The position numbers and the translations under genes were made by a program. This document shows positions 635-59,921 of a stretch of DNA of 64,000 bases, piece after piece; position 1 is the stretch's first letter; each line of letters begins with the position of its first letter. Below the pieces are notes generated by a model. It did not search any database. It was not told where the DNA came from and saw only the letters and a program-made list of their open reading frames with translations. This DNA is from Octopus vulgaris. Taxonomy: Eukaryota. The DNA lies in contig OX597831.1 of assembly GCA_951406725.2 (NCBI GenBank), positions 68,448,001-68,512,000 of the forward strand, in the 5' to 3' direction.

Positions 635-720
635 ACTTTCTACATATGTTTCGAAAATTCCACTGATACTATTCAAAAGAATAAAAGGTATAAACAATGC
701 AATCTTCTCTTCGGGAAAGT
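635..720 (-). ncRNA. Minimal type I hammerhead ribozyme, variant core CCGAAGA
   Basis: Minus strand reads ACUUUC-CCGAAGA-GAAGAUU...AAUUUUC-GAAA-CAUAUG-UA-GAAAGU: 6-bp stem I, 7-bp stem II base, palindromic stem III, GUA triplet. Confidence 0.7.
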
Positions 721-919
721 GAAAAAACGAAACTCGTCAATACGACATTTTAGCAAAAAATGATGGATTCGTATAGCGATAGACAGAACGCTATTAATAT
801 TGTTTAAAAAACGTTATATGATATAACGTCATAAGTAGCTAACAGAAAGAGTAGGGATATTAATAGTGAATGTTAAATATAAAGGAAATTAAAGTTTAAA
901 CTATATATAATGATAGAGA

Positions 920-2227
920 CTACTTATATGCACTAAAAGTATGTTTCTGCCAATGCTTACATCTGTATGCTCGTTCTATAACCGTGTTTACTAGAGTATT
1001 TTTAGAAAAAAATAATGAAAAATAGCTCAGAATTGCAGAGAAGACAGAATTTCTTGCCTTTGTCATATGGTATCGAAATTGAGAGGATCAACCATTCTAA
1101 ATGAAATTGTTCATTGTGGTCTTTTAAATCCCAAATCAGTTTGCTGAGACCGGTACTATTCCGTTTATGTCTATCCCTAAATGTTGAGTAATGGATAGAA
1201 ATTCTTTTAGATAACTCTAACGATGTGCTTCCAATGTAAAATCGTACTTTATTACGAGTACTGATTATACACTGGTATATAGAATTTTAAATCTTAGAGT
1301 TACTTGACATAAATTTAATTCTATTGGAATTGACTTCAGATACAATAACCTTGTTATTAATATTTCTAGAGGATTGGATGGTATTAGCTAAATTAATGTT
1401 AGTATTAGTAAATGTATTAATATTTAACAGTTTGTTATTATGAGAAGATATAATTTGCAAGAGATTTTTTGTGTTTGAAAACCTATCCTAACCTTATGTG
1501 AATTAATTATAGAGTAATATCTAGAATTGTTTGGAAAATTCCTAGCAATAGCTTGACGAAACAGCAGTGGGAGATTAGATTTAATTTGTCTCCCGTAAGG
1601 AATTATTAACCAAATATTTTTACTAGTATTCATAGCGTAATTACTTTTGAAGGTGTTATATTTACTTTTAGATCGGTAATAGGGAAATAAATAAGGGTTA
1701 TCTGCCTTCATTCGCTTTGTATCGGTGCGTAAGTTATGTTTGTTATCAATAATTCTTTTATGACTAGAAATCTTATCTACATTATTGAGTTTACAATTAG
1801 ACTGAGCAGAATCAATGTAGAAACTTTTTTCTGTATAACCTGCTTTGATTAAGGCAGAGTTATAGAATTCAGCGTTATTATTGAAAATATCAACATTAGC
1901 AGATAATTTAGATAATCTAAATGAAATATTCTTAACTAAATTCTTAGTGATTGCTCCAGGATGATTACTAAATTTGCTAATGTACTTAAGATTGGCCAAC
2001 GGTTTACGATATGGGAAGTAAGAGTCACTGTGTAAATTAAGCGTAATATCTAAAGAGTTGGCCTTCATCAGATCGTCATCAAAAACGATTTTTAAGCCCA
2101 TTCTACTGAAAAAATTAACTAAACTATTCTTAACTTTTTGTACCTTTTGGTTGGAAACATTTTGGAGGTAAAGTAAACAATCATCACGATATAGACCTCC
2201 ATAAATGTTAGGGAACTCTTCAGCCAT
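920..2227 (-). pseudogene. Penelope-like RT C-terminal half + linker + GIY-YIG endonuclease, frameshifted
   Basis: GGLYRDDCL...SLDITLNL...PYRKP...SNHP in the ORF; frameshift near 1478; manual translation downstream gives NSIYQCII..RFYIGSTS..HYSTF..STGLSKLIWDLK..EWLIL..PYDKGKKFCLLCNSE..RCKH, stop at 920-922. Confidence 0.85.
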
Positions 2228-2444
2228 TTAGTGCATATAAGTAGTCTCTATCATTATATATAGTTTAAACTTTAATTTCCTTTATATTTAACATTCACTA
2301 TTAATATCCCTACTCTTTCTGTTAGCTACTTATGACGTTATATCATATAACGTTTTTTTAAACAATATTAATAGCGTTCTGTCTATCGCTATACGAATCC
2401 ATCATTTTTTGCTAAAATGTCGTATTGACGAGTTTCGTTTTTTC

Positions 2445-2530
2445 ACTTTCCCGAAGTGAAGATTGCATTGTTTATACCTTTTATTCTTTTGAATAGTATC
2501 AGTGGAATTTTCGAAACATATGTAGAAAGT
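2445..2530 (+). ncRNA. Inverted copy of the same hammerhead motif, core mutated to CCGAAGU
   Basis: actttc-ccgaagt-gaagatt...aattttc-gaaa-catatg-ta-gaaagt. Confidence 0.6.
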
Positions 2531-2717
2531 AAAAATACTTGTTTAAACCTGCGTTAACTCCATTTTTTATTCATATTATTCAAAATATTCAACGTAAACA
2601 CGAAGTTTCAACCTTTATAAACAAGGAGTTACAACATCTTTACTTGTGAGATTTTTGCTGCCCTGGTAACTATTTATTTATTTTTCCGTGTTAATTGTTA
2701 ACAAGGTAAAATACACT

Positions 2718-2725
<8 letters not shown>

Positions 2726-2796
<71 letters not shown>
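2726..2796. repeat. (TA)n microsatellite, right flank of Penelope-like element 1
   Basis: Pure TA run. Confidence 0.95.
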
Positions 2797-2798
<2 letters not shown>

Positions 2799-3130
2799 TT
2801 TCTATCATATTTTTATTCTTTTACTTGTTTCTGTCGTCTGACTGTGGCTATGCTGGAGTACTACCTTTAGTCGATCAAATCAACCCCAGGACTTATTCTT
2901 TGTAAGCCTAGTACTTATTCTCTTGAGTCTATTTTGCTGAACCACTAAGTTACGTGGACGTAAACACACTAGCATTGGTTGTCAAGCAATGTTGGGGGGG
3001 GGACAAACACAGGGCTTTGATCAGCCTCAGGCTATAGTAGAAGACACTTGCCCAAAGTGCCATGCAGTGGTTGAACCTGGAACCATGTGGTTGGTAAGCA
3101 AGCTACTTACCACACAGCCACTCCTGTGGC
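2797..3130 (-). mobile_element. SINE family A, internally deleted
   Basis: Reverse-complement match to family A head and tail. Confidence 0.8.
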
Positions 3131-3149
3131 AATATATATATATAATTTA

Positions 3150-5500
3150 TTTGTTTTGAGAAACATTTTCTCTATATATAGAAGGCACACCGAAGCACTC
3201 AGGACATTTGAGCAATCGGAGAAATAGGACAAATAATGATGAGAAACAAAAGATGGGTTATTGATATGCATTATAAAAATATTATATGCACAAAATTGTA
3301 CAATAAAATATATAGTTATATAAATACATCAAAAATGCATTGAAAATATATAAATATATCAGTACAAATATATCAATAAAATATATTAATACAAATATAT
3401 TAAGATTATACAAATATATAGTCTCACTTGCAATAAAAATGATATTGAAATATTTATATAGAATAGGTGGAGTATAATATCAAAATATAATGTTATAAAG
3501 GAATATGGTAGGTTATAAGTCTTTAAGGTCTGATGGCCGTTTCTGGGGACATAGTGGTCCAAAGATATAAGAGATTCTTAAGTCCATTAATTCAAACCAC
3601 TGCCTCCTTCTTCAGGGAAGTTATCAATTGATAGGTTTACATTTGTTATGCAGATGTGGTGGAATTCAAAATTGACAGACTTTATAAAGAGCTACACTTA
3701 TCATTAAGGGATGTGGATGTTAGGTGCTTCTTTTTTTTTATTATAGGGTAGTAGGAAGGGAGAAAATACTATATTAGTATGAAGCTATCAATAATATTAG
3801 ACGTGGAGGGTGAGAGGAGAAGGTATAATCCAAGCTTTTACAATTCAGATTTAATTAAATAATAATTTATTGTGAAGTTATGAAGAGTTAGCCAAATGTC
3901 TAAGGGTCAAATAATACCTGAGTCTACAATAGAAGATAACATCTAAAAATCTATTTAACATTGAAGAATTATACTTACACAGAATGATTCTTTAATACAG
4001 AGTTTACATTTACATGTATATGAATTGTTAGGGGGTGGCTTCTGTTACAATTGACCAGGTTAGTTTGTACTGCATATTTTGTGCTTTGAGAGCATGGGTC
4101 TGCATAGCTAATGAAGCAGAAAATTTGGTTTTTGGGTTAATAAAAGAATATGTGCATGATATCTACACTTAAAGTCTACTGTGCACCCAATATATATCAT
4201 TGCCTTGTGGTTTCAGGATGTCATCACAGAGCATTTATATATTACATTTTTGGTGTAAGCAAAATCCTTCAAGAGGTATAAATTGGATACTCAATAGTTA
4301 CAGGATTTTTCATTTTTTTGATAGAATATCTCTCTCATGAAGCTAATCTAGGTTGACATGTCGTCAATAAGGGTGAGTCCAAGTCAAAGTTTATAACAGA
4401 ATTAGAATGAATGGTTATGTTGGAACTGGTATCCACTATTTGGTAATTGGGTTTGCAGGATAATGTCATCATTTTAGAATTACTTAGCCTAGGATAGTTG
4501 TTAATAACTATAGTACTGTTATTGTCTGGATCCACTTATGGTGCTATATAGGGATTTATATGTTCAGCCGACTGGCCTTGGGGTTTGCAACTATTGAGGG
4601 CAGCTATGATAGATTGGTGGTTAGGTGTGGTGGAGTATGAAATTTTTTATTGAAGATTTATTGAGAATGGAGTAAAACTTGTACTGTGGTAGAAAGTTTC
4701 ATTTTTCAGATATAAAAAAATAATTTTTTAATTAAGGGTGGTGTGAACCATAAAATTTCATGTTTTCTGGAGGCAAGTTTTTTTGACTGTGTTTATAGGG
4801 AGCTGATCAAGATGGGGAGATTTAAAGTTATCGCAGGACCAAGGGTACCAATGGTGTTGATGTACATAATTTGAAAACGGTTTTCTTGTTCTAGACCAAT
4901 TGGTTTTATTTACATTCATGGTTGTGGTTAGCCTATTATTATTTTTGGATGTATTTGTGCTTTTGTTTGAGTTGTTACAGCTGTCATGTGTTGGTTAGTT
5001 AGTGTAGTTGTTACAGTTGTGTTTTCTTGGTTGGTTCACATTATCATTCAAGTCATTGTTACTGTGATGTGTTATGTGGTTGGCATTTGCATTGTCTCCA
5101 GGGTTGTTATATATGTCACAGTTATTTTCAGTGCAGTCTGTGCACTGTCTGAGTTTTCAATTATTAATCCTACGAATGTGGTGCTCTGTATCTGATGTGT
5201 CTGCATATGACAGTTCTACAGTGTGCCGGTTGAATAGTTTGCTGTGTGTGCCATTTTCAGGGAAGTAATCATCAAGTGCAGCAAAGAACTGTTTTGCAAT
5301 CCTGAATGAGATGTTCTTGAACAGCACACTTCATTTCATATTGCTCCAATCTACTCAGCAGTAAATGGGTAAACCTGTGATGGACTAGTCTTCCAGTTGA
5401 GAGGAATGTGGGCCTGTTTGCCGAGCCAGCAGACTGGCATAATTTAAAGGCTAATACAATGCAAAACACATTGTAACCAGCAATGTATAACAACATCTCT
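3150..5500 (-). mobile_element. Penelope-like retroelement 2, decayed; RT core not recognisable
   Basis: Manual translation at about 3970-4300: PLEGFCL..KNVIYKCSV...MIYIGCTVDFKCRYHAH...TWSIVTEA..CKLCIKE (GIY-YIG); linker SYSTTPN near 4620-4650; hammerhead relic in the 3' region; boundaries approximate. Confidence 0.7.
3525..3620 (-). ncRNA. Degenerate hammerhead ribozyme motif
   Basis: Minus strand: CUGAAGA-aggaggcagugg...ccacuauguCCCCa-GAAA-cggcca-UC; stem I is poorly paired. Confidence 0.55.
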
Positions 5501-5635
5501 GATACTCTGAATGATCATGGGATCATGTGATGTGCATATATATATGTATGTGTGTGCGTCCGTGTGTGTGCGTATAAATATCTACTTGGTTCAGTCATTA
5601 GACTGCAGTCATACTGGGGCACTGTCTTGATATAG

Positions 5636-5687
5636 TATATGTATATATATATATATATTATATGTGTGTGTGTATATATATATATTA

Positions 5688-5748
<61 letters not shown>

Positions 5749-5790
5749 TATATTTATACACACACACACACACACGTGTGTGTATGCATG
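5636..5790. repeat. Compound (TA)n/(TG)n/(CA)n microsatellite
   Basis: Direct inspection. Confidence 0.9.
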
Positions 5791-8700
5791 TTTACATTTG
5801 CATTTCTCGAAAAAAATTGCTGTCACTGCTCCTGTCAACACATTATCCACTCTCTTTGTTGCTTTGGATGCATGTAGAGTAAGGTAAAATTTTCTTCCTT
5901 GAAATATAGGCAGGTGAAAACCAAGAACAGCATGTAGCTGTAAAACAATTTCTCAATAATACTCTCATAGGAGCATAAAAAAAACTGGTGTAAACACAAA
6001 TGGACAGGAAAAAGATAAATCCATTTACACATAAGCATGTGCATGCACACGCACACATACATACACACATGTGCACACACACACATGTGCACACACACAC
6101 AGAGTTTCACAAAATATATAATCATTATCTATAAAAAAAATAGATGTGTCATGCAATGATTCATCTTTTAGGTATGGTTCTTGAAACTTCAGATATATAT
6201 GATATGATAAGTTTCATCCTGCGATATCTACCCTTCCTTGTTTATTGAGTAGTAACAAAATGTAAATGAAAATTCAAGTAGCTGGAAAACCTTGTTTTCA
6301 ATGGAGGTTGAAATCATTTGTTATTTGCATTCACTCCAAGAACCTTCGTATAAATAAACGAATAAATCTAAATCTAAAGTAAAAAGCGATCAGAGAAAAT
6401 CTAAATAAAGTAAAAAGCTATCAAAGAGGGATTTAAGCATATTGATTCTTGGGTCTTTCTTTGAATGATATTATTTATCATGAGTATAGATAAGGCAAGC
6501 TGAGCGGTTATAACAGGGAATTAAGCCATCAAGAAATTGGTTCACAACACCACAGAATAAATTCTGTAAGCATTTATTTTGATTTGTTTTTGCATAAGGC
6601 TACTTTTCTTTCTACACCAAATTCCACTTTCTGGATATATAGGGTAAAATCAATCCTAGCAGGAAAAGTAGAACAATTTGAGTAACTGTTATCGTTGACT
6701 TTCTTGTTATATCTTGGAGTAGCACAGTCCCATCTTTAACATCAAATAGGTTGTGACATATTGGCCACTATATACAAGAGAAAACTAGAACCAAAACTTC
6801 AATAGTAAAGTAAAACAATTGAGGGCTCTATTCTGGAAATGAGAAGATTTGTATAACTTTCTCTTCATTCTACACTTTTAAAGCACTTTTGAATGATTTA
6901 GGTAGAGGAGGAATGGCAGTCATCTCTATGGTTGGTGGAAAGAAGTTATCTTTGGATCAGAGGTCTTGGCTTGAATGCTTCCAACAAAGCAGATTCTGCT
7001 AATTGCACCCTAAGACCAATGGTGAAGTTTGACTGGAGGACATATTAAATCTACTACCAAAGGGAAAAAACTGCTTTTTTAATTTCTTCCTAATTTTCCT
7101 CAACCAAATTTCATTTTTAAGATTTTGGTTAACTTGAAGCTATGGTAAAAGTCACTTTCCCTGTGATACCAAGCTTTGCATTTATCCATCTTCATCTGAT
7201 AATACAAGCACCACTAATAATGTTTTTTTTTTTGTTGCTATTTGCCCGACACTTTGTTGAATCAATCAACTATGACTCTACAGTATGACTGTACTGTTAA
7301 TACGATCATTAACAAACTCAAGAAAGAAATCTAAATAATATACAGGTTTTTAGATCAGATAACTAACTGAATTTCACTTCCAGGCTATGCCCAAGGATTT
7401 TTCAAACTTATATCCAAGAATTCCTTATGAAAGAAGCCACAAAGTAGGGTTAAGCAGTTAAGATTTCAAAATATGACAAATCCTTCTTGAGGAGATTCAA
7501 AGTTAGTATAAAAATAGCTCAAATATAATAAAAACTAGCAATTTTAAAAATATATTTTGATAAACAATAAACATTGCCACATGTTATTCCCAGCTGTATT
7601 CAAGTCCTATACCTAGAGATATAGACATGGATAATTGTGAAAAAAAAGTCTCGATTTTAGCACAATGACTAAATGATTATGCCATTATTCATTCAGCAGA
7701 AAGATCAGAAAAAAAGAAAGAAAGACAGAATGAAATAAAACCTCTTAAAATCTTTCAACTTAATAAAAATGATAAAATAAACTGTTAAAAAAGTCAAGCA
7801 ATTAGTAAATGTCATTGTCAGCATTAGTCTTCATAGAATAGTATTATTACTTTTGTAATCTGCTTCTAAAATACCGCTCAGATTTCCCCAGAGACAAAAT
7901 TATAAAAGTAATATAATGCATGAATATGGACAGTTGTAAGTGTTGGTTGATTTAAATGAGTCTTGTCTATGCAATTTTTTTTTGTTTGTTTTTAGTTTAC
8001 CTTTCTTTGATGCATTTTGATTTTTCCTGAAATTGATTTTTCTTTTACATTCGAGTAAAAGAGTTTTCTGTCTCTAAAATATAATGACAAATGACACACA
8101 ATTTAAGAAATTCTTCCACTTAAAAGTTAAGACAGTTCATTATGAATTTTTTTGTTAGTTATAATTTAGTCAGTTATTAATAAACAAATGAATAGGTACC
8201 CTGTTCTTCTTCAACAATATATTAGTAAATATATAAGGACATAGTAAATGTGTCAAGGCCGACAGGAAGCGTCGATGCTTCCTAGGGCTAAACAGCGGTG
8301 GTGTAATTCCCTTACAGGATTGTCATGTTAAGTTGACAGTATACAACCACTCTACCTCCCCACCACCGTACATATCTCTATGAGATATTTAGAAATTTAA
8401 TATATTACTGCCACCTTTTTAAATGTAATCACCCAATAACATTGAAAGTTTGGTCCAAATAAACCAACTAATTTTCAGGGACTCTTGTAAAGGATACTCT
8501 AAACTAGTTTATCATCACCTTCTCAAGTTCTTCAAATTATACCTATTTATGGCTTTACCTATTTATGGTAACCATTTAAAGCTAAATGAGTTGAGATGGA
8601 AAATTCTAAGTGTCCAGGTCATGAATAGATTTCAGTGTCAGTAATAGAAAAGGAACTTTCAACTTGAAGAAAGTTATTGGCTCTGCCAGCTATAACTCTC

Positions 8701-9209
8701 ATTAGACTTCTATGTTGCCAATTTCAAATTAAAAAGCTGCTCTTGTATGAACCTCCATATTTTTCTGGTTTCCTAATACTAGCTTCTGACGCCTTATATA
8801 GATATGACACAAACAGCAGCATAATTTGTTTCTCAGTCATACTATTCAACTACACTCAGTGCATTCTAGTGCAAGCTGGTATCCTTACTAAGCTCTTCCG
8901 TCTTTCTCTAAATGAATCTATATCAATATATAGAAACAGGATACAGCTAAAAAGAAGTGAAATCACTCTCTGAGAATGTAAAAAAAGGAGAAAGCAAAGT
9001 CTTCAGTGTGAGTATGTGGTTGGTGGGGTCATCCGCGTCCTCCGCTTCATTTTTTGTTAATCACACATTCTCATTTAATTGTATATATTTTAATTGTTTG
9101 TTTATTCATACGTTTCATCTCATTCGATACCCTGACCCCAACGTTTGTTTTGTCTGTCCCCGTATTGTCCCCTCTTTTTCTCAACCTTATGGTGAATAAA
9201 GAAATACTC

Positions 9210-9261
<52 letters not shown>

Positions 9262-9784
9262 TACCTTGAAAGTTATAAAAACAAAATGTAAATAGTCACC
9301 CTCTTTCATTAATTTTATTTTCCCTTCCTTCTTAGCGAGCAATATGATGATTTCTACAAAGCTAAATCTATTAGAGGCTTGCAAACCACATCACACACCA
9401 ATAGACTTTCACCCTTGAAAAGTTTTGTGAAATCAATACTTTTCTGCTTGAGATCTGCAAAGCCTTTGAGTATGTCTGGCATGAAAGCTATCTAGACAAA
9501 TTGTCTCATGTCTTGGGATCAGAAGTTTCCACTCATACTACTCTATTGCTCCATCCACTTAAAAGATTCTCACAGCAATCATTCAGCTCTGGTGTAGTTT
9601 AAAGTTCTCCCATTGTTTCTCCTTCTATACACAAATCACGAACCTGTTGTTCCTTCTGCACCTGTGCAGATGATACAACTCTTTATCACTTCATAATAAT
9701 CTCAACATTCAGCATAGTTTCCATATGCTAGAATGTACTATCAGCATAGATTTGCAAATAACCTTCAGTGAAGAAAAGATAACC

Positions 9785-10920
9785 CTTTTTTAATACAGTT
9801 CTATATTTAAGAGATAAAGAATTACGTACATTATTTACATTTGATGGATATTTGTCCTCATCTTGTTTGTTGCTAGCATAACATTTTGGCTGATATACCC
9901 TCCAGCCTTCTTCAGGTGTCCTGGGGAAATTTCGAACCAGGGTTCTCATTCCTAAGGTATTTTTTGTTGTTGTTGTCGTCGTCGTCATCATTATTATTAT
10001 TTTTGTTCAGGTCACTACTTGGAATCAAACTCAGAATCTTGGGGTTAGTAGCCTGTGCTCTTAACTACACCATATGCCCGTGGGCAATTATAAAGTGAAT
10101 TTTAGGGCTTATACATCTTATATTTTTCTATCCTTCTTTAGTACCGGTTCCCATATGCTATTCATATCTGCACTCAGTCTGCTTAGGAGGTTGTTGTGTC
10201 CTAGCATATGCGCTGCTTCTTTTTGTTTCCGTATTTTCCAGTGGTGTTCTCTGTCTATTATTTTAACTTCATCCCACAGGGGGAGGTGGTCTCCATTTTT
10301 CCGTACATGATCACCTATACCCGATTTATTTTGAAAGGGCAGCATGTTTCGGCTTTGTATAACCTACCACAGCTGCATGGGATGGAGTACACGCAGTATT
10401 TGGTTATATTCTCTTCTATTGGTGGTTTTACTCGAAGGAGATATTTGCGAAGTGTTGTATTACTCTTGAATACTGTCCTGATGTCATATGGGCCGCATAT
10501 CCTTTGTATCTTTTAGGAGAGGCCTTTCACATAGGGTAGACAGACTGTGGACAGTTTGTTGGCCTCATCCTCTCTCTTCTTCATAATTGGAGTGGATAGT
10601 ATACTTTTGGGGTAGTTGTTGCTTAACAGATCGTTATTGAGCTTGATCATTTCTTCGTGGTTTGTATTACGATCGCTACTTATATTCTTGCACGATGTTT
10701 TAGGCGCCTAAAACATCGTGCAAAGAATATAAGTAGCGATCGTGATACAAACCACGAAGAAATGATCAAGCTCAATAACGATCTGTTAAGCAACAACTAC
10801 CCCCAAAAGTATACTATCCACTCCAATTATGAAGAGAGAGGATGAAGCCAATAAATTCTCCACAGTCTGTCTACCCTATGTGAAAGGCATCTCCGAAAAG
10901 ATACAAAAGATATGCAACCC
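9785..10920 (-). mobile_element. Penelope-like retroelement 3 (3' part) with a fold-back 5' end
   Basis: VCLPYVKG..KIQRIC (thumb/linker), CVYSIPCSCGRLYKAET (GIY-YIG), and ORF 10118-10345 SGIGDHV..HLPLWDEVKIIDREHHWKIRKQKEA. Confidence 0.8.
9876..9920 (-). ncRNA. Degenerate minimal hammerhead motif
   Basis: Minus strand: acac-CUGAAGA-aGGCUG-gagggUAUAU-CAGCC-aAAA-uguu-augc; GAAAC has decayed, consistent with CpG loss. Confidence 0.5.
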
Positions 10921-11478
10921 CTCACTAAGACTAAGTTTTTTTCATCAGGTCCAAAAAATATTTTATCTCTTATCAGTCCCTGATTTTCTGCAAAACTAAA
11001 TAGTATCCAAATTGATACCATTCCAACACACATTTGCATCAACAATAAAACAATTTGAAGATTAAATCACCACTAATTGACATATGCAGTCTGTTCTCTA
11101 TACTTTTTTTACCAATTACAATGACTGAAACTAGCTAGCTGACTAGTTGTCCCCAATACACCTATCTTTACATCTTTCATTACATCTGCTGTGTCTCACA
11201 CTGAATTACCTAACCTTTCTTTTCCAGAATGCCAATATCCTTTCTCTTTAGCAGAAACATATAATAATAATAATGAAATTATTGTATACAGTGCTCAGGT
11301 GCACCACAACTTGTCATATATTTGATGGTAGTCAGCTTCTCCAACAATTAAGCAAGCTTATCTTTCAGCCATCTACTCCATAGCTAATACAATGAAATTT
11401 GTAGTAATGTGGCCTTATTTTTACTCTATCATCCATATATTTCTTGCAGTCTATTGTTTTCAAACTGAGCATCAACTA

Positions 11479-13012: not shown

Positions 13013-13129
13013 TAATCAGTTTTGTTGTGGTTACAAAGACCATCAACATTCCTCAATCTAACCAAACCCAATACTAAGCTAATTTTAATATGATTCTTTC
13101 TATAAGGCAACAAGCTGGCAAAACCATTA

Positions 13130-13550: not shown

Positions 13551-13923
13551 GCATGATTCCTTCTATATATCTTTCATAACTTAGATTAGCAACTTGCTGT
13601 GTCTATAACTTCAGTACTCATTTGTATCTTCTTGTGGCAGTTGTAAATGGCAGTGCAGTGAATAGGAATAGGATATATTGACATAATAAGATTTACCAAG
13701 GAAGCAGTTAAGAACACAGCATTCTGAATTTAGCATTTCAGCAATTCACTCACTGCTTTCTCATCCTTACTTCACACACCTTCACACTTTCGCATTCATA
13801 CAAGTGTCAATCTACAAGCAATATGGCTGGAAGATATGACTGCTTTCACATCCCTACCACTCAAATGCACACAAACTGTTCAATACGTACCCATATTCAC
13901 ACACACCATATACACACATTCTG

Positions 13924-23000: not shown

Positions 23001-23038
<38 letters not shown>

Positions 23039-25390: not shown

Positions 25391-26025
25391 ATTATACCAA
25401 AATATAATTATACCAAAATATAATATTATACCAAAATATAATTATACCAAAATATAATTATACCGAAATATAATTATACCGAAATATAATTATACCAAAA
25501 TATAATATTATACCAAAATATAATATTATACCAAAATATATTATTATACCAAAATATAATTATACCAAAATATAATTATACTAAATTATAATTATACCAA
25601 AATATAATATTATACCAAAATATAATATTATACCAAAATATAATTATACCAAAATATAATATTATACCAAAATATAATATTATACCAAAATATAATTATA
25701 CCAAATATAATTATACCAAAATATAATTATACCAAAATATAATTATACCAAAATATAATTATGCCAAAATATAATTATACCAAAATATAATATTATACCA
25801 AAATATAATATTATACCAAAATATAATTATACCAAAATATAATTATGCCAAAATATAATTATACCAAAAAATATAATTATGCCAAAATATAATTATACCA
25901 AAATATAATATTATACCAAAATATAATATTATACCAAAATATAATATTATACCAAAATATAATATTATGCCAAAATATAATTATACCAAAATATAATTAT
26001 ACCAAAATATAATATTATACCAAAA
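25391..26025. repeat. AT-rich minisatellite with mixed 16- and 18-bp units ATTATACCAAAATATA(AT)
   Basis: Roughly 35-40 tandem units with few variants. Confidence 0.95.
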
Positions 26026-33159: not shown

Positions 33160-33720
33160 GTACACAGATTTTAAATAAGACTTACTAATAGTTTCATGCT
33201 ATAAAGATACAATAATCGGGCAGACTCATATAACATGCCATATGTCTCCAAGCAATCTTTCAAGCTCAGTGCATACTGATAGAGCTACTTGAAAATCAGG
33301 ATGCAGGTCTATAAGAAAATACAGAAAGAAAATGTGAAGAATATCGATGCAAAAAGTGAAATGAGAAGAAAGGAAGAAAAAGCAAAACCAAAATTTTCAT
33401 CTCCTTTGTCTGTAAAAATCATAATTAATTTAACTGATATGGAATAGTATAATGAAGAGAAGGCCAAAGTCTGTGAGACAGTCACTCAATCTGGTGAGGG
33501 TAGTGTCGTCCAGTTTCAGAAAAGAAATTTGTCCTTGTACTTGCATTTGCTAAAAATTCCAGATCTGGAATTAGTGTTGTGGAATTTTGAGAATCATAAA
33601 AGAATGTGTGGTCTTTTTCAGCTACATATAACTTGCATTTCTTTGATCCATTTTTATATGGAATATAGTTCTTCATGATTCTTCGCTTGACCAACTGCAC
33701 ACCTTATTCTGCATTATTGG
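33160..33720 (-). mobile_element. Penelope-like retroelement 4, 3' fragment (endonuclease C-terminus + pseudo-LTR)
   Basis: ORF 33482-33700 IPYKNGSKKCKLYVAEK parallels PYDKGKKFCLLCNSE of element 1; hammerhead relic UUGAAAGA-uugc...gcau-GAAA-cuauuag-UA at about 33179-33268. Confidence 0.6.
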
Positions 33721-35831: not shown

Positions 35832-36035
35832 TGACCGTGTGTGTACCATCGACGATTTTTTTTTACTCTGTCTTCCCTTCTATGGATCTTTCCTTCTCCT
35901 ATGTTTCCAACGAAGAGCTCCGCTCGAAATGTTAAACCCTCCTTCTTTCCTTCTTTCCTGTGCGTCCAATAATACTATATTTGTTCCACGTCCTCGCGTT
36001 GTTGTGTTTTTTTGTTCTTTCTTGTTTGGATTAAC

Positions 36036-36812: not shown

Positions 36813-36834
36813 GCTCACACACACACACGTTGTT

Positions 36835-38961: not shown

Positions 38962-39001
<40 letters not shown>

Positions 39002-45024: not shown

Positions 45025-45524
45025 TCATCATCATCATCATCATCGTTTAACGTCCGCTTTCCATGCTAGCATGGGTTGGACGGTTCAACTGGGGTCTGGG
45101 AAGCCCGAAGGCTGCACCAGGCCAGTCAGATGTGGCAGTGTTTCTACAGCTGGATGCCCTTCCTAACGCCAACCACTCCGAGAGTGTAGTGGGTGATTTT
45201 ATGTGCCACCGACACAGGTGCCAGACGAGGCTGGCAGACGGCCACGCTCGGATGGTGTTTTTTATGTGCCACCGACACAGGTGCCAGACGAGGCTGGCAG
45301 ACGGCCACGCTCGGATGGTGTTTTTTATGTGCCACCGACACAGGTGCCAGACAAGGCTGGCAGACGGCCACGCTCGGATGGTGTTTTTTATGTGCCACCG
45401 ACACAGGTGCCAGACGAGGCTGGCAGACGGCCACGCTCGGATGGTGTTTTCTTATGTGTCACCGACACAGGTGCTAGACGAGGCTGGCGGACGGCCACGC
45501 TCGGATGGTGTTTGTTACGTGCCC
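45025..45524 (-). mobile_element. Retroposon family D with five tandem 63-bp units (45201-45516)
   Basis: Unit starts at 45201, 45264, 45327, 45390, 45454 and (45517). Confidence 0.85.
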
Positions 45525-47958: not shown

Positions 47959-48001
<43 letters not shown>

Positions 48002-49197: not shown

Positions 49198-49409
49198 ATT
49201 TCTTTATTGCCCACGAGGGACTAAACATAGATGGGACGGACAAGGGGATTAAGTTGATTACATCGACCCCAGTGATTAACTGGTACTTATTTAATCGACC
49301 CTGAAAGGATGAAAGGTAAAGTCGGAATTTGAACTCAGAATGTAACCGCAGACGAAATACTGCTAAGCATTTCGCCCGGCATGCTAACGTTTCTGCCAGC
49401 TCACCGCCT
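49198..49409 (-). mobile_element. SINE family B nested in an older tRNA-SINE (about 48960-49650)
   Basis: TSD TATCTTTAT at 49191-49199 and 49410-49418. Confidence 0.85.
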
Positions 49410-52400: not shown

Positions 52401-52699
52401 TTTATATATTAATCATTTTAATATTTTGAATAATATGATCAAGGGTGATTACATGTTACATTTTAAATCGAGTAACTGAAATGAAGCTCCCTTATAATCA
52501 TATGGTATAAACGCTTGACTTAACATCTTGAAAACTCTCATCAAGCAAACACATTGATGATGTATTTTCAAAATATTTCTTTTAGACACTAATTCTAGGA
52601 TATAACAACACTTTAGACTAATTAAATTTTGTATATCAACACAAATAGCAAAAATACAAAACAGTTCAAATCCTTGAACTGATTTTCTTGTAAAGATAT

Positions 52700-53600
52700 A
52701 CGATCCTTTATCCCCCAAACCGGACATTTTTGTGGAGGTTGGAGCATGTCACAACAGGGGTTGTTTGGTGCACAAACATCTGACCACCATGATCAGACTC
52801 ACTCAGATATGACGTGGCAACACTTGGCAGGTCGGCTACCACTTACCACCAAGCATCAGATGTGGCTCAGGACTTATAGAGAAGACATTTGCTGTTTGCT
52901 GTCTTCGTGTTGTTCTTATGACTGTATATAAGTTACCCTGTAAATGTCAAAAAGAACTGCAGATACTCCAAAGGATAATAGTGACAATGACACACCTGTT
53001 GCGTGCATGAGTGATTAGGAAATTGCTGAAATGGTGTTAAATATGGATAAAAATGAAGACAGTAGTGATGATGACATAGAGAACACTGGTGAAAAACTTC
53101 CTGTAGACCAGTGGTTCCCAAACTATGAGTCGCGACCCATCTGTGGGTCGCGAACGGATTCTTAGTGGGTCGCAAAAAGTTATAAAATCATGCATTAGTA
53201 TTTTTACTCAGTAGAGTTAATGTTTTTACTCAGTAGAGTTAAGTGGGTCATCATAAACTGGTGTGATAAATAGTGGGTCGCGACTCTAAAAAGTTTGGGA
53301 ACCACTGCTGTAAACAATATGGTGAAAATATGTGATCAGTTCATAGCTGGTCTTGATCAACGTGCATTTATCATTGAGCAACAGATTACGGGAGTTTACT
53401 CAATTAAAGAGATATTGCTTAGACAGAAACCTATACTAATGAGACAGCTTACACTTGAAGAAGTCTTCAAAAATACCCTGTCTCTTTGTTGCTACTTTAT
53501 CACTTGAGGATCTCGTTCCTGGCTTATCATAAGTTTGTCTGCAACCTGATGACAATGTTGACGACACTGATGGACCCTGTTCTACAAATTATCTACAACT
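52700..53600 (+). mobile_element. pogo/Tigger deletion derivative (Tigger4/Zombi-like)
   Basis: ATG at 52944 MSKRTADTPKDNSD, followed closely by the C-terminal EIAEMVLN..NTGEKLPVDNMVKICDQFIAGLDQRAFIIEQQITGVYSIKEILLRQKPILMRQLTLEEVF; boundaries approximate; family assignment from memory. Confidence 0.65.
53109..53307. mobile_element. hAT (Charlie-like) MITE
   Basis: Perfect 16-bp TIR CAGTGGTTCCCAAACT; 8-bp TSD CTGTAGAC/CTGTAAAC; internal GTGGGTCGC repeats. Confidence 0.92.
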
Positions 53601-54029
53601 ACATATTTAGCCTAGTTTGAACCAATTTCTGGCTCTAGTAAATAAATAAACTGTAATACCATTTGTAGTCTTTCTTTATTCAAATTAGTGTGAATATTTA
53701 TGCACTTCTCTACAGAAATATTATAGAGTAATATACTGGTAAATGAAATAGTGAAATAATTAAGATCACAAATAACAAAATACATATAGTAGGATAATTT
53801 AAAACAAAAATACACCTGTATATGTGGATCGTGTATTTTTGTTTTAAATTATCCTACTATATGTATTTTGTTATTTGTGATTTTAATTTTAATCATTCAC
53901 TTAAGGATAAAGAAAGCAGAGAAAATCACTGATCTTGTATATCCTTGCAATTTGGGGTGTTCATTAACGATTTACCTTCACCCACTCCCTAAATAATTGG
54001 ATAAATGAAACTTGGCATAATTATTAGTC

Positions 54030-54140
54030 CTTCTCTACATAACCACCACCAAAAGTGACTCACTTCTCCCATTGCTTTATGCAGCTGCGAAGACGAAGTC
54101 AGATGGTGTGAGGTTAGGACAGTAAGGGGGATGAAGAAGG
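54030..54140 (-). mobile_element. Mariner relic
   Basis: HPPYCPNLTPSDF (YSPDLAPSD-like). Confidence 0.45.
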
Positions 54141-57100
54141 ATTTCATAGCTTCAGGAGTGTGCTTTCATATGGGTGGGTTTGCAAATCTTTTTGGTTGCT
54201 GTCAGAGATTGGAAAATTTTCAAATTTGGTATATTGATGTAATTTTGCACACTGGGATTCATTTATTCCAGAAATAAAATTTAGGAAATTTTGCTGAGGT
54301 TCAAAGTTTGATAATCAGGAAATCATAACTGGAAGCTGGCATTTTCTGTGTGATAGCTATCTGTCACAAAATGCTCCTGGTCAAAATTTATGGTGGTGGT
54401 TGCAGTGGGGAAAGTGTCATTGACTTGCATGAATAGAGTTGTTGTTACAATGAAGATGGCTGACAACAGCTTTGCTTGTTACTATGGAAACAGACACAAA
54501 TATGAGATTTATGGGCATGTTGCATAATGGTGGCTTTTGATTGGCTAATATTGCCCAAAATTTATGAACTTTAAAAGCTATTAACTTTTTGTTTATTGAT
54601 TTATGACAAAAATGAATTTCCTTTCCAATACAAAAATAAATCAGTAAACCAATAATTGTAAACAACTGGAATAAAATTGAAAAAAAAAATCAAATCTGTG
54701 ACAGCAACCAAAAAGATCCTAGATGGGTTTATGTTTTGTTGGAACAATTTCTGGAAGTAGATACTTTTCTTACTTCTGCTAACCATCTATCAAGTAGGTG
54801 TGAAACTTGATTTGAGCAGTCAGGGAAGCTGATTAGAGTCAGGACAACTATGTTACTTTCTTACTTATAAAGTGACTATAAAGTCACTAGCCATTATACC
54901 CTGGGGTTATAATGACTGTGAAGTGAAGGTACTGGGCTTAGATATGTTTCAAACATCTGCATTCACCTGAGAACATCTATAAATTCACTGGGCAACATGA
55001 AGCTCAAACTGTAATAAATAGCAAATATATTTCAAATTCATATATTAAAATTACCATTTTGTTTCTTGTTAACAAAATATTCTTTTCATTCTAACTGTAT
55101 AATTTATCATTCTCTCATGAGGTTTGAATTGCTCTGAACAACTACTAGAAATTAATTATTAAGTGCTCATACTTGGCCCTATAAGTTGCACCATTTTCAT
55201 TTTTCTGTTTTTCTCCTTATCACAGAAGCATCCATTCTCTATATTGTTTTATACTTTATATTTTGGATTTGCTTTTACTTATTATAGACTGGTCAGAGGA
55301 GAATGGCAATACTCATGACCATTCTTTAAGGCCTTCATAAACTGATGAAATTGATGTTTAGTTTAAAAACCTGCAGGCTGACTTCTGCATGAAAGCATTG
55401 ATGGGAAGTGATTTCCAGATGGATAAAGGCTTGATGAAAATTATTGTGATAAAAGTATTTAATACAGAATCTGATAGAGAAACAGTAGAATGAAGAGTAA
55501 AAATAATTATTTCTGCTGGGCCTACGTGACATATTGGTGTATGAATCTCTTTGTCAATCATTAAATTGACTTTATTTTAAATACAGTCTAGATTGTTTGA
55601 ATGTGTATCAGCATTACCATCTCAGATGCATGAATAGTACTCCAAGTTGGGTTCATAATACATTAACAAGACCAACTAATTATAGTATAAAGGTGTAATA
55701 AAATTAAAAGCAAAATACCAACTTTTACCTGAGAAACCTCTTTTATTTTAAATGCTCCTAACAGTAAAATTCCTTAAAGGCCATCTATGAAAAAGGAAGA
55801 AAAACTTTAGAATTTTAAGCCACTGCAAACTGAAGGAAAGATATAAAGGTTTACCCACTGGTCATATATTTGTTGCTTGAAATATAAATAACACACTGTA
55901 TACATGAAGAATTTTCAGAAAATCTAAGAGATTTTGCTTTGAGCAGTATTGGTACAGGATATGTAATAAGTGTTCTTCCACACTATAACTAATTGAATAC
56001 AATCGAAGCTTTCCCTATCAAAACAACAACTGACATTGCCAAAAGAAAAGAAAAAATATGTATGTTCTGAAAATAGGTACATTTTGAATCTAAAATAACT
56101 AGAGAATAGTAAATGTGCTGTGTCCATCAGTTTTGAGACTCAAGATATATTAAAAGGAACTGTAAAGAATAAAATTACTTTTAGACCAATTTATTTTATA
56201 CTGAATACAAAAACTCAGAGTAATTGATATAAAGATCTAACATCATAAACAGAATAAGATTTGACATGTTATGTTCTGCACTCAGTTCCTTTGCAAACTG
56301 AGACATTAATTCTTCAATAAAGGAAAAATTTCTGATAATGAAGAAATATGTAACTGTAATAAAGTGTGTTAAGTAACCAATTAAAACCTCATGATCTAGA
56401 ATTATCCACTAGAAAAGATGTAAAAAAGAAATATTACCTCATCAGTGTTGCTATTTTCCATGGGCAACTGTATACAACAGAGCTTCTAAAGGAATTGGAA
56501 TTTTATTCCAAATTCCTTCATACAAACAAAATGGTTTTAGCTATGCTGTCAAGGGAAATCTATGGAACACTTCTGTACTCACCATGTTTACTTTGCAATG
56601 GAAAAATAAGACTTGTCTTTGGATATTCTGATGTTTTTATATATTTTATGTTATACTTTATTAAGTTGGTATCTTGCAAAGGGCCAGTCATGCACTACTA
56701 TAAACAGATATTCCTCAAACTTCTAAAACACTATTGTAAACAGATATGCCCCTAAAACTTCAAAAAGTACACAAAATTTCAGGCACATACACATGCACTG
56801 TAGCGAAGCATACAAAAATAAGAGCATTGGTACAGGTGCAGTAGAAAATAATTCAAATCCAGTAGTTTTACCTCTGATCAGTAATGCAAGGAAACTGTTT
56901 GCTTTACAAAAGAGAAAAGAAAAAAGTGAAATGTATATTGCAATGACCAGTGTCTCATTGCCTGCTGTATAAATAGTGGTACTGGCAAAGAGGGGACTTA
57001 TACACTGAAAGTTGAGAATGCTTCTAAATACTCACAAAAGAACAACTGAACAAAGTCTCAGTCAATGTTTGGAGTGATGCTGTTTCTATCATACAGGCAT

Positions 57101-57681
57101 GAGTATATTGAAGCATGTGCCTGGGTCTCAAACTAAAGATGAGACATGCCATACACTTGCTTACAAGACTGTGCTGCAATATAAGGTGTAGTGGAACATT
57201 CGGTCACAAAGGACAATGAATCAGACATTGACTTTTGGGTCATCATTTCATTTGTCAAATAAGACTAGCAGGTTGTGAGCACTGACGTTAACAAAATAAC
57301 ATGCTATCTGATAAGGTTTACATAGACATACAGACCATGGTGACCACTGGAGACCACTTCAGGGTTGTGCTTCATGATAAGTGCAGAAAGAAGGACCATG
57401 AAACTAAGAGTGTGGAGCAAAATGCCCATCTGTATAACATGTGTTACAGTAAAAGTAACTTGATGGCTTTCTGCCCTTGGAATATGAAAAGACAAAGTAA
57501 AAGGAAAGCAGTAAAAAAACCAACAGAGGTGCACCAACAACAGTAATACAACTCAGTACCACCAGTCAGCTCTAAAGGATTGCAAAATCAATTACCTTGG
57601 ATTCACTGCCTGGACTTGAAAACCAGGGTATGCATCGTAGCTGAACCATCTCAGCATATGCAATGGCGAGAAGTACATGGA

Positions 57682-58142
57682 TGAGCTGGCAGAACCGTTA
57701 GCACACCGGGCGAAATGCTTAGCAGTATTTCGTCTACCGTTACGTTCTGAGTTCAAATTCTGCCGAGGTCGACTTTGCCTTTGTTCCTTTCGGGGTCGAT
57801 AAATTAAGTACCAGTTACACATTGGGGTCGATATAATTGACTTAATCCATTTGTCTGTCCTTGTTTCTCCCCTGTATGTTTAGCCCCTTGTGGGTAATAA
57901 AGAAACAGAATGGCGGCGAGCTGGCAGAACCGTTAGCACGCCAGGCGAAATGCTTAGCTGTATTTCGTCAACTGTTACATTCTGAGTTCAAATTCCGCCA
58001 TGGTTGACTTTGCCTTTCATCCTTTCGGGGTCGATAAATTAAGTACCAGTTACGCACTGGGGTCGATGTAATCAGCTTAATCCGTTTGTCTGTCCTTGTT
58101 TGTCTCCTCTGTGTTTAGCCCCTTGTGGGTAGTAAAGAAATA
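57682..58142 (+). mobile_element. Head-to-tail pair of SINE family B copies (57682-57907, 57912-58142)
   Basis: Two near-complete copies a few bases apart. Confidence 0.9.
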
Positions 58143-58477
58143 GGATATTAGAGAAGGGTGACATGCAGACAAGAAATGAATAAAAAATAGAAACCAGCCC
58201 AAACTGAAGGCACCTGACATATATGGAAAGAAACCCCACCCTTCCTCAAAAGTTCCAGATGTATCTGCTGAATAGTTTGGAGGTGGGGGTTATGTGGTTG
58301 TCAGTTTAAATGAAGATCGGAAATTTTCCTCTGAATGTAAAACTCAGAAATGGAAAATGGTTGAAGTCGAGAAGTACTCTAATTCGACCCAAGTGGGGGA
58401 TTTTCATCTGCCTATGGGTCAGTTGATTGTATTTGAGTTTTAATTGTATTTATCTACTTCTAATTCTACATATATTC

Positions 58478-58866
58478 ATTTACTTGTTTCAGTTATTTGA
58501 CTGCGGCCATGCTGGAGCACTGCCTTTTAGTCGAGCAAATCAACCCCAGTACTTATTCTTTGTAAGCCCAGTACTTATTCTATCGGTCTCTTTTTGCCGA
58601 ACCGCTAGGTGACGGGGACGTAAACACACCAGCATCGGTTGTCAAGCAATGCTAGGGGGACAAACACAGACACACAAACATATACACACACACACATATA
58701 TACATATATACGACGGGCTTCTTTCAGTTTCCGTCTACCAAATCCACTCACAAGGCTTTGGTCGGCCCGAGGCTATAGCAGAAGACACTTGCCCAAGATG
58801 CCTCGCAGGAACCCGGAACCATGTGGTTGGTAAGCAAGTTACTTACCACACAGCCACTCCTGCGCC
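58478..58866 (-). mobile_element. SINE family A, full length
   Basis: Complete head, microsatellite and tail. Confidence 0.9.
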
Positions 58867-59400
58867 TATATTTATTTTTTTTTTTTATTTATTTTGTATG
58901 AAATATTTAGTATGTATTTAAGTGTTGTATAATGCTCTTGCCCCATCTTTTGTTTTTATATAACTTTACTTGTATATTTTCACATATTCTGTAAGCCATA
59001 GTTTTATTGTGGAGCTACCAACAACCCTCGGAATCTGGTTGGTTTCTATATTTCTCATGACATTGGGGCTAAAGTTGTTTACAAGCATATTTTTTTAAAA
59101 TCCAAAGCATAAAACAAAGAGGCATTTCCCCCAGTCAGTAAGTAAGAGGGTGATGAAGGGGAATTATCTTCAAAAGCTTCCTCTTCTGTGAAAATGTCTT
59201 CCCTTCCTTGAAGAGGTGAGAGGCAACAGTAGTTGCAGCAGCAACAATTACAACAACGCAGGAGTGGCTGTGTGGTAAGTAGCTTGCTAACCAACCACAT
59301 GGTTACGGGTTCAGTCCCACTGCGTGGCACCTTGGGCAAGTGTCTTCTGCTATATGCCTTGTGAGTGGATTTGGTAGACGGAAACTGAAAGAAGCCTGTC

Positions 59401-59460
<60 letters not shown>

Positions 59461-59463
<3 letters not shown>

Positions 59464-59921
59464 GAATAAATATACTATTAAATTAGTATCTAATTCTCTC
59501 ACCCTTATTAATTAATTATAATTATGCTGCATTTATTTCTAAATGCTGTATTTGTTTTCCGTGAGAGTTTGGCGCGCTGTTGGTTGGGGCATTTGAATTA
59601 TAACGTCCGATGTAATCAATTGAACCGCACGCGTATTTATCGTTATGGTAAAATCTGGCGTGTGATTGAGTGGATTTCATCCAGATAGTCTTGGCTGAAG
59701 AGCTACAAATGGATTATTGTAAGTAATATTACATTTAATTCATTAATAGCGAAACAATTGTCCCAAAATAATCTGTATTTTTGTTATTTTTTATTTGCCC
59801 TGTCCGTGTGAGCTAGCAGTCGTACCGGCTTTCATGGGAAACATGTATTTTTCGTGGTTGAAACCTTTTGGATTAACTGGTGCTAGAGTGATCAATATAG
59901 TGACCACTCTCTTATATTTAT
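59461..59921 (+). mobile_element. ~460-bp non-coding hammerhead-bearing element (solo Penelope pseudo-LTR or retrozyme-like)
   Basis: Unique sequence that retains CpGs, bounded on both sides by (TA)n, contains a canonical hammerhead. Confidence 0.75.
59691..59766 (+). ncRNA. Canonical minimal type I hammerhead ribozyme
   Basis: UUGG-CUGAAGA-GCUA..AUGGAUUA.UGUAA/UUACA..UAAUUCAU..UAGC-GAAA-CAAUUG-UC-CCAA; all core nucleotides present; GUC triplet, predicted cut after 59762. Confidence 0.85.

What the first reader, a model, noticed from the sequence alone, without database searches (positions are those of the whole stretch)
635..59766. Hidden set of minimal hammerhead ribozymes, with a different palindromic stem III in each element
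Seen: hammerhead core motifs at 635-720(-), 2445-2530(+), 3525-3620(-), 9876-9920(-), 33179-33268(-), 35903-35937(+) and 59691-59766(+), in otherwise unrelated elements. Stem III is a short self-complementary or near-self-complementary sequence that differs between elements: ACAUAUGU, ACGGCC(A)U, ACAAUUGU, A(C>U)GU, ACUAUUAGU. Known: Penelope-like element pseudo-LTRs carry minimal type I hammerheads that are thought to cleave as dimers via palindromic stem III. Inference: about one motif per 9 kb would imply a very large genome-wide ribozyme load, and the palindromes could act as family-specific dimerisation codes. Intronic copies could cut host pre-mRNA only when a partner of the same family is co-transcribed.
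Basis: partly seen in the sequence, partly recalled or inferred. Interest (0 to 1): 0.85.

Follow-up and report, generated by a model that had tools for sequence, protein, structure and literature searches.

The report
Dimer-type hammerheads of many Penelope retroelements
These are copies, mostly decayed, of a small RNA motif carried at the ends of Penelope-type jumping genes and predicted to cut itself; the kind is known, but this genome holds an estimated 50,000-110,000 intact-looking copies, and their sequence variation suggests that they work by pairing two copies together.

Summary
Partly confirmed; a known kind with stronger evidence than I found in print. All seven sites descend from type I hammerheads of Penelope-like elements (PLEs), but only 635-720(-) and 59691-59766(+) are intact. 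Sites 635 and 2445 are the two arms of one young Hydra-type PLE insertion, and sites 9876 and 35903 share one palindrome (ACGU), so 'unrelated elements, different palindrome in each' is overstated. A 1 Mb genome sample holds 29 intact-looking motifs against 1.75 in shuffles (about 76,000 genome-wide). Stem III looks selected for pairing between two copies: 42 of 43 pairs that a lone hairpin cannot form are complementary in unpicked lineages, and a G-U-tolerant variant outnumbers its mirror mismatch 1,624 to 47. Palindromes are not unique family codes (9 of 43 recur in unrelated lineages); stem I plus stem III together are predicted to keep families apart (4 of 630 cross-pairs fold a core), probably as a by-product of divergence. 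Cleavage, expression and a host gene were not shown. Family-variable palindromic stems, an octopus one included, already stand in a 2021 supplement, and this scan noted such motifs in other genomes.

The parts
589..2717 (-). One young Hydra-type PLE insertion between (TA)n tracts: 5'-truncated body on the minus strand (589-2226) plus an inverted terminal copy (2227-2576) with a ~140-bp tail (2577-2717)
   Evidence: 1,851 candidate places, the 40 scored at 99-100% identity
635..720 (-). Intact type I hammerhead: stem I ACUUUC/GAAAGU, core CCGAAGA (U4C), 55-nt extended stem II, GAA, stem III ACAUAUGU, predicted cut after A at 641
   Evidence: unconstrained cofolding of two copies gives the double hammerhead
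923..1286 (-). GIY-YIG endonuclease remnant of the PLE (frameshifted)
   Evidence: Pfam PF01541 E 3e-4, 21.4 bits, below the 22.6 cut-off; tblastn 88-97% to family copies
1424..2227 (-). Reverse transcriptase C-terminal remnant (YRDD motif), 5'-truncated
   Evidence: no Pfam match
2445..2530 (+). Second copy of the site-635 hammerhead in the inverted arm, with A9 changed to U
3525..3620 (-). Decayed hammerhead of an old PLE family (family stem III ACGGCCGU, stem I UCC/GGA); this copy has lost stem I and G16.2
   Evidence: GIY-YIG-like remnants in two relatives, L143 and L145
9796..10085 (-). Short non-coding element: tRNA-like head (~10005-10079; A- and B-box-like motifs by recalled consensus), (AAT)n, decayed minimal hammerhead at 9876-9920 (family stem III ACGU), AT-rich tail; family makes PLE-type inverted duplications
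   Evidence: 1,006 exact B-box plus hammerhead-flank matches, control 0; ARAGORN finds no tRNA in 7 of 7 family loci
33179..33268 (-). Decayed hammerhead of an old family (stem I GAGC/GCUC, U-U at the base of a long stem II, stem III ACUAUUAGU); extra A in the core, C3U, broken stem I
35840..36035 (+). Short PLE end-piece beside a (TA)n array with a decayed minimal hammerhead at 35903-35937 (family GUUU CCGACGA A GAGC-UCC-GCUC GAA ACGU U AAAC)
59460..59905 (+). Single, 5'-truncated unit of a non-coding ~534-bp element that forms head-to-tail arrays elsewhere, between (TA)n tracts
59691..59766 (+). Intact type I hammerhead: stem I UUGG/CCAA, CUGAAGA, 49-nt extended stem II, GAA, stem III ACAAUUGU, predicted cut after C at 59762

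Best explanation
The motifs are terminal hammerheads of many Penelope-like retroelement families, mostly left in dead insertions, that likely cut as double hammerheads when two copies of one family pair through the self-complementary stem III and swap stem I strands. Shown: the motif sits about 200 nt behind the endonuclease stop of a young Hydra-type element and in its non-coding derivatives; families keep stem III self-complementary at positions a single hairpin cannot pair; G-U-tolerant variants were amplified and the mirror mismatch was not. Inferred: pairing happens mostly within one tandem or multimeric element transcript (two terminal repeats, or neighbouring ~534-nt units), cuts it to unit length, and helps retrotransposition enough to be selected; element protein may assist, as published for an anole PLE. 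Specificity would come from stem III plus stem I (about 12-20 nt), so unrelated families would rarely cross-react; this is most simply a by-product of drift by compensatory steps through G-U pairs. Dispersed single copies, including the two intact ones here, are most likely idle passengers.
For: PLE context. Load: 29 motifs in 1 Mb against 1.75 in shuffles; pattern counts 14,128 vs 88, 35,037 vs 2,436, 46,987 vs 13,227. Dimer-only pairs: 36 Watson-Crick and 42 with G-U of 43, in 23 unpicked lineages; permuted mean 12.4, maximum 24 in 20,000; held-out 400 kb 14 of 14, shuffled hits 2 of 11. Mirror test: ACAUGUGU 1,624, ACACAUGU 47, while singleton A>G and T>C changes in the element body are 12 and 12. 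Folding: site 635 dimer -61.4 against 2 x -25.2 kcal/mol, and its free minimum is the double hammerhead; imposed double-hammerhead folds beat two monomer folds by 11-12 kcal/mol at both intact sites. Direct arrays of the site-59691 family, 3-5 units. Literature: low but detectable cleavage of PLE hammerhead dimers and none for the monomer (PMC4209133); dimers of axolotl motifs cut much better than monomers (PMC7229834).
Against: No cleavage or RNA ends were observed here. The 1,624 copies come from a handful of subfamilies (about five by eye), not independent events. For site 59691 the free minimum fold, alone or as a dimer, is not the hammerhead. 12 of 36 homodimers, among them all four 4-nt stems, fail to form a core even with core bases held unpaired. 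The young site-635 family carries U4C, which lowers activity in vitro (PMC3088659). In vitro the anole PLE hammerhead needs protein and is dispensable for insertion, and no RNA-seq reads ended at its cut site (PMC11167929). No direct tandem of the site-635 family was among the 4 long loci fetched. 5' ends of 3 arrays and one long element do not line up at the cut site (2 downstream, 2 upstream).
Confidence: 0.72

Rival explanations
1. Stem III self-complementarity is selected for RNA dimerisation as such (two genomic RNAs brought together for a dimeric RT-endonuclease, template jumping or the inverted-end structure), with cleavage secondary or absent.
For: All the covariation evidence shows pairing, not chemistry. 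The anole PLE protein is predicted to be a dimer and cleavage is dispensable in vitro. Inverted pairs are common: 12 pairs among the first 100 rows (hand count). U4C is the majority state in two abundant families.
Against: The catalytic core, GAAA, the UH site and stem I pairing next to the cut are kept in 65 clusters from 40 lineages, more than a kissing palindrome needs; the descriptor asked for them, but random sequence rarely meets it.
Confidence: 0.12
2. The palindromes are a selected family code that keeps competing families from cutting or capturing each other's RNA in trans.
For: 43 distinct stems in 65 clusters; related clusters often differ in stem III or stem I, and only 10 of 46 within-lineage pairs and 4 of 630 between-lineage pairs fold a core.
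Against: 9 stems recur in 2-5 unrelated lineages, and 59 of 1,399 unrelated pairs have compatible stem III; the two most abundant families share ACGU. Unrelated short helices seldom pair by chance, so orthogonality needs no selection. No rate test was possible.
Confidence: 0.08
3. The motifs act as monomers with a 2-4 bp stem III hairpin, helped by the long stem II and an extended stem I; the palindrome is incidental.
For: Stems of 8-12 nt can close a 3-4 nt loop; Hydra-clade motifs were drawn this way as 'canonical' (PMC8557442 File S2); a weak axolotl motif cuts 6-22% as a monomer.
Against: Loop bases free in a monomer are complementary 42 of 43 times; mirror test 35:1; 8-nt monomer hairpins cost +2 to +5 kcal/mol while the duplexes give about -6 to -11.
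Confidence: 0.05
4. Dispersed copies serve the host by cutting pre-mRNA when a partner is co-transcribed.
For: Tens of thousands of intact-looking copies exist, so some must lie in introns in sense.
Against: Five of seven window copies are decayed; in 1 Mb, 7 of 9 and 5 of 12 copies of two families are decayed; many copies carry their own antisense arm; retrozymes are depleted in Xenopus introns (bioRxiv 10.64898/2026.07.22.740005).
Confidence: 0.03

Closest known systems
Minimal and variant type I hammerheads of metazoan PLE pseudo-LTRs (Cervera and De la Pena 2014, PMC4209133; main text parts 1-2 of 4 and supplement part 1 of 3 read)
   Same: PLE terminal position, short stem I, extra base before stem II, palindromic 15.2-16.2 and loop 3, many variable families per genome, opposite-strand pairs, proposed dimer action. 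The ACGU families here are this form exactly.
   Different: Published counts are about 2,000-9,000 per genome against an estimated 76,000 here (descriptors differ). Many families here have 8-12 nt stems and a 40-78 nt stem II region; the main text describes 7-8 bp helix II and small palindromic helix III.
Hydra-clade PLE hammerheads (Craig et al. 2021, PMC8557442; passages, section 11, supplement part 2 with File S2 read)
   Same: Family-variable, near self-complementary stem III of 9-10 nt, including ACUAUUAGU (the site-33179 stem, in Penelope-1_HM) and an octopus family (Hydra-1_oBim); U-U at the base of stem II; (TA)n insertion.
   Different: There they are drawn as monomer hairpins, the main text has no 'palindrom' word, loop 2 is 3-10 nt, and no dimer or selection test is made.
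Repeat-type dimeric hammerheads of Aedes (Perreault et al. 2011, PMC3088659, Fig. S8 legend only)
   Same: Palindromic stem III plus loop III across several ribozymes, 10-bp dimer helix proposed; U4C named as a natural weaker variant.
   Different: No family census or mirror-variant test in the passages read; the supplement itself was not read.
Non-LTR retrozymes (Cervera and De la Pena 2020, PMC7229834, passages; Li et al. 2026 bioRxiv 10.64898/2026.07.22.740005, parts 1-2 of 5)
   Same: The site-59691 family is a non-coding tandem unit with one type I hammerhead per unit, a likely non-autonomous PLE.
   Different: Circular RNA and self-cleavage are untested here; the axolotl total (126,247) is larger but comes from two families in a roughly ten times larger genome.
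Schistosome Sm-alpha repeat (tRNA-like promoter plus hammerhead; recalled, no call)
   Same: Site-9876 family joins a tRNA-like head to a type I hammerhead.
   Different: Here the hammerhead is the PLE minimal form, copies are dispersed with PLE-type inverted ends.

Membership tests
Type I hammerhead ribozyme | Core C3-U4-G5-A6-N7-G8-A9, G12-A13-A14, A15.1-U16.1, H17 | tested here: met
   Met at 59691 and, with U4C, at 635; not met at the other five copies
Type I hammerhead ribozyme | Stems I and II paired, with covariation between families | tested here: met
   65 clusters with different stem I and II sequences that keep pairing
Type I hammerhead ribozyme | Self-cleavage at H17 | not testable with these tools
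   Only assembled contigs of guessed RNA runs were available
Rfam hammerhead families | Covariance-model match | tested here: not met
   No hammerhead family in the 150 rows shown of 163 at E up to 10
PLE pseudo-LTR hammerhead | Lies 3' of an RT plus GIY-YIG ORF in the same sense | tested here: met
   Site-635 family: core 209 nt behind the endonuclease end; sense endonuclease remnants upstream in only 7 of 65 clusters, one of them a chance neighbour, as most loci are short end-pieces
PLE pseudo-LTR hammerhead | Inverted 5'-truncated copy and optional tail | tested here: met
   Window 589-2717 and most of 30 family loci
Hydra clade of PLEs (site-635 family) | C-terminal GIY-YIG without CCHH, with CxxC and CxH around the conserved E and N | tested here: met
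   YIGST...CLLCNSE...RCKHW in family ORFs against the description
Hydra clade of PLEs (site-635 family) | DKT motif, RWK motif, (TA)n insertion, length under about 3 kb | tested here: met
   SDKTGN present; RW followed by L rather than K; (TA)n flanks; coding region about 2.3 kb in L191
Hydra clade of PLEs (site-635 family) | CxCX5C linker before the endonuclease | tested here: not met
   No such cysteines in the L192 ORF
Hydra clade of PLEs (site-635 family) | Placement in an RT tree with reference PLEs | not tested
   No reference set was built; hence 'Hydra-type'
Non-LTR retrozyme (site-59691 family) | Non-coding tandem units, each with a type I hammerhead | tested here: met
   Arrays of 3-5 units of about 534 bp, no ORF of 200 aa, in 3 of 3 loci fetched for this
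Non-LTR retrozyme (site-59691 family) | Unit-length linear and circular RNA | not testable with these tools
tRNA-derived SINE (site-9876 family) | tRNA-like head with A and B boxes | tested here: inconclusive
   Box-like motifs (recalled consensus) conserved and linked to the hammerhead; ARAGORN negative in 7 of 7 loci; Pol III transcription untested

The most novel reading that the evidence does not exclude
Dozens of co-resident Penelope families run a self/non-self system made of RNA: each family's hammerhead fires only on meeting an RNA with the same stem I plus stem III, families change these stems under selection to escape cutting or parasitism by relatives and by non-coding derivatives (the 534-nt arrays, the tRNA-headed element), and tens of thousands of intact dispersed copies let an active family cut host transcripts in trans.
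Probability: 0.1. Interest if true: 0.8.

Novelty: new variant of a known kind. Interest (0 to 1): 0.42.

Why it matters
What PLE hammerheads do, and whether they work as dimers in cells, is open: one in vitro study found them weak, another found cleavage dispensable. This genome supplies a population-scale natural experiment that favours selection for copy-to-copy pairing during amplification, two young families with strong predicted double-hammerhead folds to assay, and a panel of about 40 lineages predicted to be nearly orthogonal. It also shows a ribozyme load that Rfam misses in this window and that an octopus repeat-annotation paper does not mention in its main text. The window copies themselves are ordinary transposon debris.

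Tried and rejected
1) Rfam scan: no hammerhead row; long stem II and minimal forms evidently fall outside the models. 2) I first read site 33179 as a false positive from the majority of 20 close copies; the pattern search showed canonical cores in many copies, and I withdrew that. 3) RNA evidence: no holder on record as RNA; contigs of guessed RNA runs cover the site-59691 unit and some span the predicted cut, strand unknown, with no joints or piled ends. No evidence either way. Whether the copies are intronic is unknown. 5) A splice-donor-like GTAAG/GTGAGT in loop II as a general feature: 4 of 30 lineages against 2.4 in shuffles, 106 of 500 reach it; rejected as general. 6) A-to-I editing or strand-biased mutation as the cause of the G-U excess: singleton A>G 12, T>C 12 in 42 copies; not supported, small sample. 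7) A PLE ORF right behind the L105 hammerhead proved to be another element type. 8) Odd against even stem lengths as a control: 1-3 inner bases 1,054 vs 563, 5-8 bases 3,350 vs 669; many rows are re-reads of 4-base families and odd stems exist, so not decisive. 9) One cluster of 66 (L199, AT-rich duplication) was dropped as a chance hit before the counts. 10) No paper on family-specific hammerhead dimer codes or a genome-wide cephalopod census was found; subscription journals and the bioRxiv supplements were not visible, nor figures.
Full report
Setting. The window is 34% G+C and rich in (TA)n and dispersed repeats. It lies in a 2.8-Gb genome of 227 contigs. From recalled repeat motifs it looks like an octopus; no call establishes that.

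The seven sites. The quoted strings are present. A strict type I hammerhead descriptor finds 635-720(-) and 59691-59766(+) only, against 0.05 per shuffled window; allowing one core mismatch adds 2445-2530 (A9U) and 35903-35937 (G5A, CpG decay), against 0.02. Sites 635 and 2445 are the inverted arms of one insertion, 589-2717, between (TA)n tracts: a 5'-truncated minus-strand body with RT (YRDD) and GIY-YIG remnants, an inverted 350-bp terminal copy and a 140-bp tail. The family is young: 1,851 candidate places, the 40 scored 99-100% alike. Longer copies show DKT, RW, a C-terminal GIY-YIG without CCHH but with CxxC and CxH, as described for the Hydra clade; the CxCX5C linker is missing and no tree was built. 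Site 3525 belongs to an old family whose majority reads CUGAAGA...GAAACGGCCGUC with a 3-bp stem I. Sites 9876 and 35903 belong to the two families that dominate the minimal class; both have ACGU. Site 33179 belongs to an old family in which many copies have a canonical core; the window copy has an extra A, C3U and a broken stem I. Site 59691 lies in one unit of a non-coding ~534-bp element that forms 3-5-unit arrays elsewhere. So: six insertions, five palindromes, two intact motifs.

Load. Whole-genome pattern counts against reversed-pattern controls: 14,128 vs 88 (long stem II, four free bases in stem III), 35,037 vs 2,436 (ACGU class), 46,987 vs 13,227 (short stem II, four free bases). The excess sums to about 80,000; the first and third overlap slightly and patterns do not check stems. 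Independently, 100 stretches of 10 kb taken at fixed positions on 30 contigs hold 29 motifs with paired stems against 1.75 in 8 shuffles (range 0-6), about 76,000 genome-wide (Poisson range roughly 50,000-110,000); the stricter descriptor gave 11 in the first 600 kb, where the looser gave 19. Two intact motifs in 64 kb is thus typical. Decayed copies are about as common or commoner: 7 of 9 and 5 of 12 in two families.

Diversity. 163 distinct motifs from 292 loci fell into 66 clusters; one was dropped as chance, leaving 65 clusters in 40 lineages with 43 distinct stem III sequences of 4-12 nt and stem II regions of 12-78 nt. The descriptor did not ask for a palindrome. By hand, 96 of the first 100 rows are self-complementary (79 Watson-Crick, 17 with G-U) and use 11 of the 16 possible four-base palindromes.

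Evidence for pairing between copies. Bases that close a loop of under three nucleotides cannot pair in one molecule. I had hand-picked some loci, so I restricted the test to random stretches and bystander motifs and left out the two outer pairs: 23 lineages, 43 such pairs, 36 Watson-Crick and 42 with G-U; permuting partners gives 12.4 on average and at most 24 in 20,000. A later 400-kb sample gave 14 of 14; chance hits in shuffles 2 of 11. Mirror test in the site-635 lineage: ACAUGUGU and ACACAUGU are the same DNA change on opposite strands of the palindrome and both are loop changes in a monomer, but only the first keeps a dimer helix. Counts are 1,624 and 47. Singleton changes in the element body are strand-symmetric, A>G 12 and T>C 12. 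The 1,624 come from about five subfamilies by eye, so they show which variant was amplified, not 1,624 events. Related clusters show double changes with G-U intermediates in the genome (ACAUAUGU/ACAUGUGU/ACACGUGU; ACAAUUGU/ACGAUUGU/ACGAUCGU). Unconstrained cofolding of two site-635 copies gives the double hammerhead (-61.4 against 2 x -25.2 kcal/mol); for site 59691 the free minimum is another fold, though the imposed double hammerhead beats two imposed monomers by 11 kcal/mol.

Family code. In a double hammerhead both stem III and stem I form between copies (established geometry). Nine of 43 stems recur in 2-5 unrelated lineages; 59 of 1,399 unrelated pairs have compatible stem III, but only 8 also have 4 bp of stem I on one core and none on both. 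With core bases held unpaired, 24 of 36 homodimers fold both cores (all four 4-nt stems fail), 4 of 630 unrelated pairs fold any, and 10 of 46 related pairs do. Predicted specificity is real, but it rests on both stems and is what divergence alone would give.

Host effects. No host gene was established. RNA data were contigs of guessed RNA runs and decide nothing. A transcript through 589-2717 would carry the sense motif and its 99% antisense arm, which would likely mask it (inference); 12 such inverted pairs stand among the first 100 rows (hand count). Xenopus retrozymes are depleted in introns.

What is known. Cervera and De la Pena 2014 describe these motifs in PLE ends, palindromic 15.2-16.2 and loop 3, many families, 2,000-9,000 per genome, weak dimer cleavage. 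Perreault 2011 notes palindromic stem III and a 10-bp dimer helix in Aedes, and U4C as a weaker natural variant (passages). Craig 2021 File S2 lists about 30 Hydra-clade motifs with family-variable 9-10 nt near-palindromes, among them ACUAUUAGU and an octopus family, drawn as monomers with short loop 2. Retrozymes as non-autonomous PLEs. The anole PLE hammerhead is protein-assisted and dispensable in vitro (passages). A giant squid genome paper counts 235 Rfam hammerheads (passage); an octopus repeat annotation lists 31 recently active PLE families and has no 'hammerhead' or 'ribozyme' in its main text (passages). Earlier notes of this scan report like motifs in other genomes, none in this one. 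New in my searches: the scale, the long stem II with 8-12 nt stems, the selection tests, and a tRNA-headed hammerhead element.

Verdict. Real, mostly fossil, known kind; a variant architecture and good indirect evidence for dimer function. Interest 0.42.

Noticed in passing
window 9796-10085(-); family loci L167-L190: The family joins a tRNA-like head to a minimal PLE hammerhead and makes PLE-type inverted duplications: a candidate SINE-like element moved by PLE machinery. 9 copies covering the hammerhead in 1 Mb; 1,006 exact linked matches, control 0. No paper found.
   Followed up: partly
window 59702-59750 and clusters 4, 19, 26, 50, 53, 55: A splice-donor-like GTAAGT/GTGAGT is kept in loop II in 6 of 6 diverged clusters of the site-59691 lineage; an intron starting there would remove half the ribozyme. 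Not enriched across lineages, no spliced reads seen.
   Followed up: partly
window 33179-33268(-) family: A sizeable subfamily has an extra A in the core (CUGAAAGA) beside canonical copies; unknown whether it was active when amplified.
   Followed up: partly
L201:4269-4931 (G000:C1, 6.247 Mb): Intronless ORF of 221 aa that reads like dCMP deaminase (recalled motifs, no search) between two copies of a 3-kb duplication that carries a hammerhead; probably a host retrogene, not PLE cargo.
   Followed up: no
window 10582-10831: Near-perfect 250-nt inverted repeat (scored by miRNA models below their cut-offs); likely a fold-back transposon or inverted PLE-type end.
   Followed up: no
window 25391-26025: Minisatellite of 16-18 bp units, about 38 copies.
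   Followed up: no
window 45197-45523 and 57683-58140: Tandem copies of 63 bp (5.2 units) and 235 bp (1.9 units) inside abundant dispersed repeats.
   Followed up: no
G000:C1:50432525-50435552 (L289), L202: A second non-coding tandem family with ~589-bp units, ACGUACGU stem and U4C core.
   Followed up: partly
window 59471-59612, run X13: Contig depths of 2,000-4,000 on the 534-bp element in one guessed RNA run against under 100 in two others; may mean strong expression in one sample, but contig depth is a poor measure.
   Followed up: no
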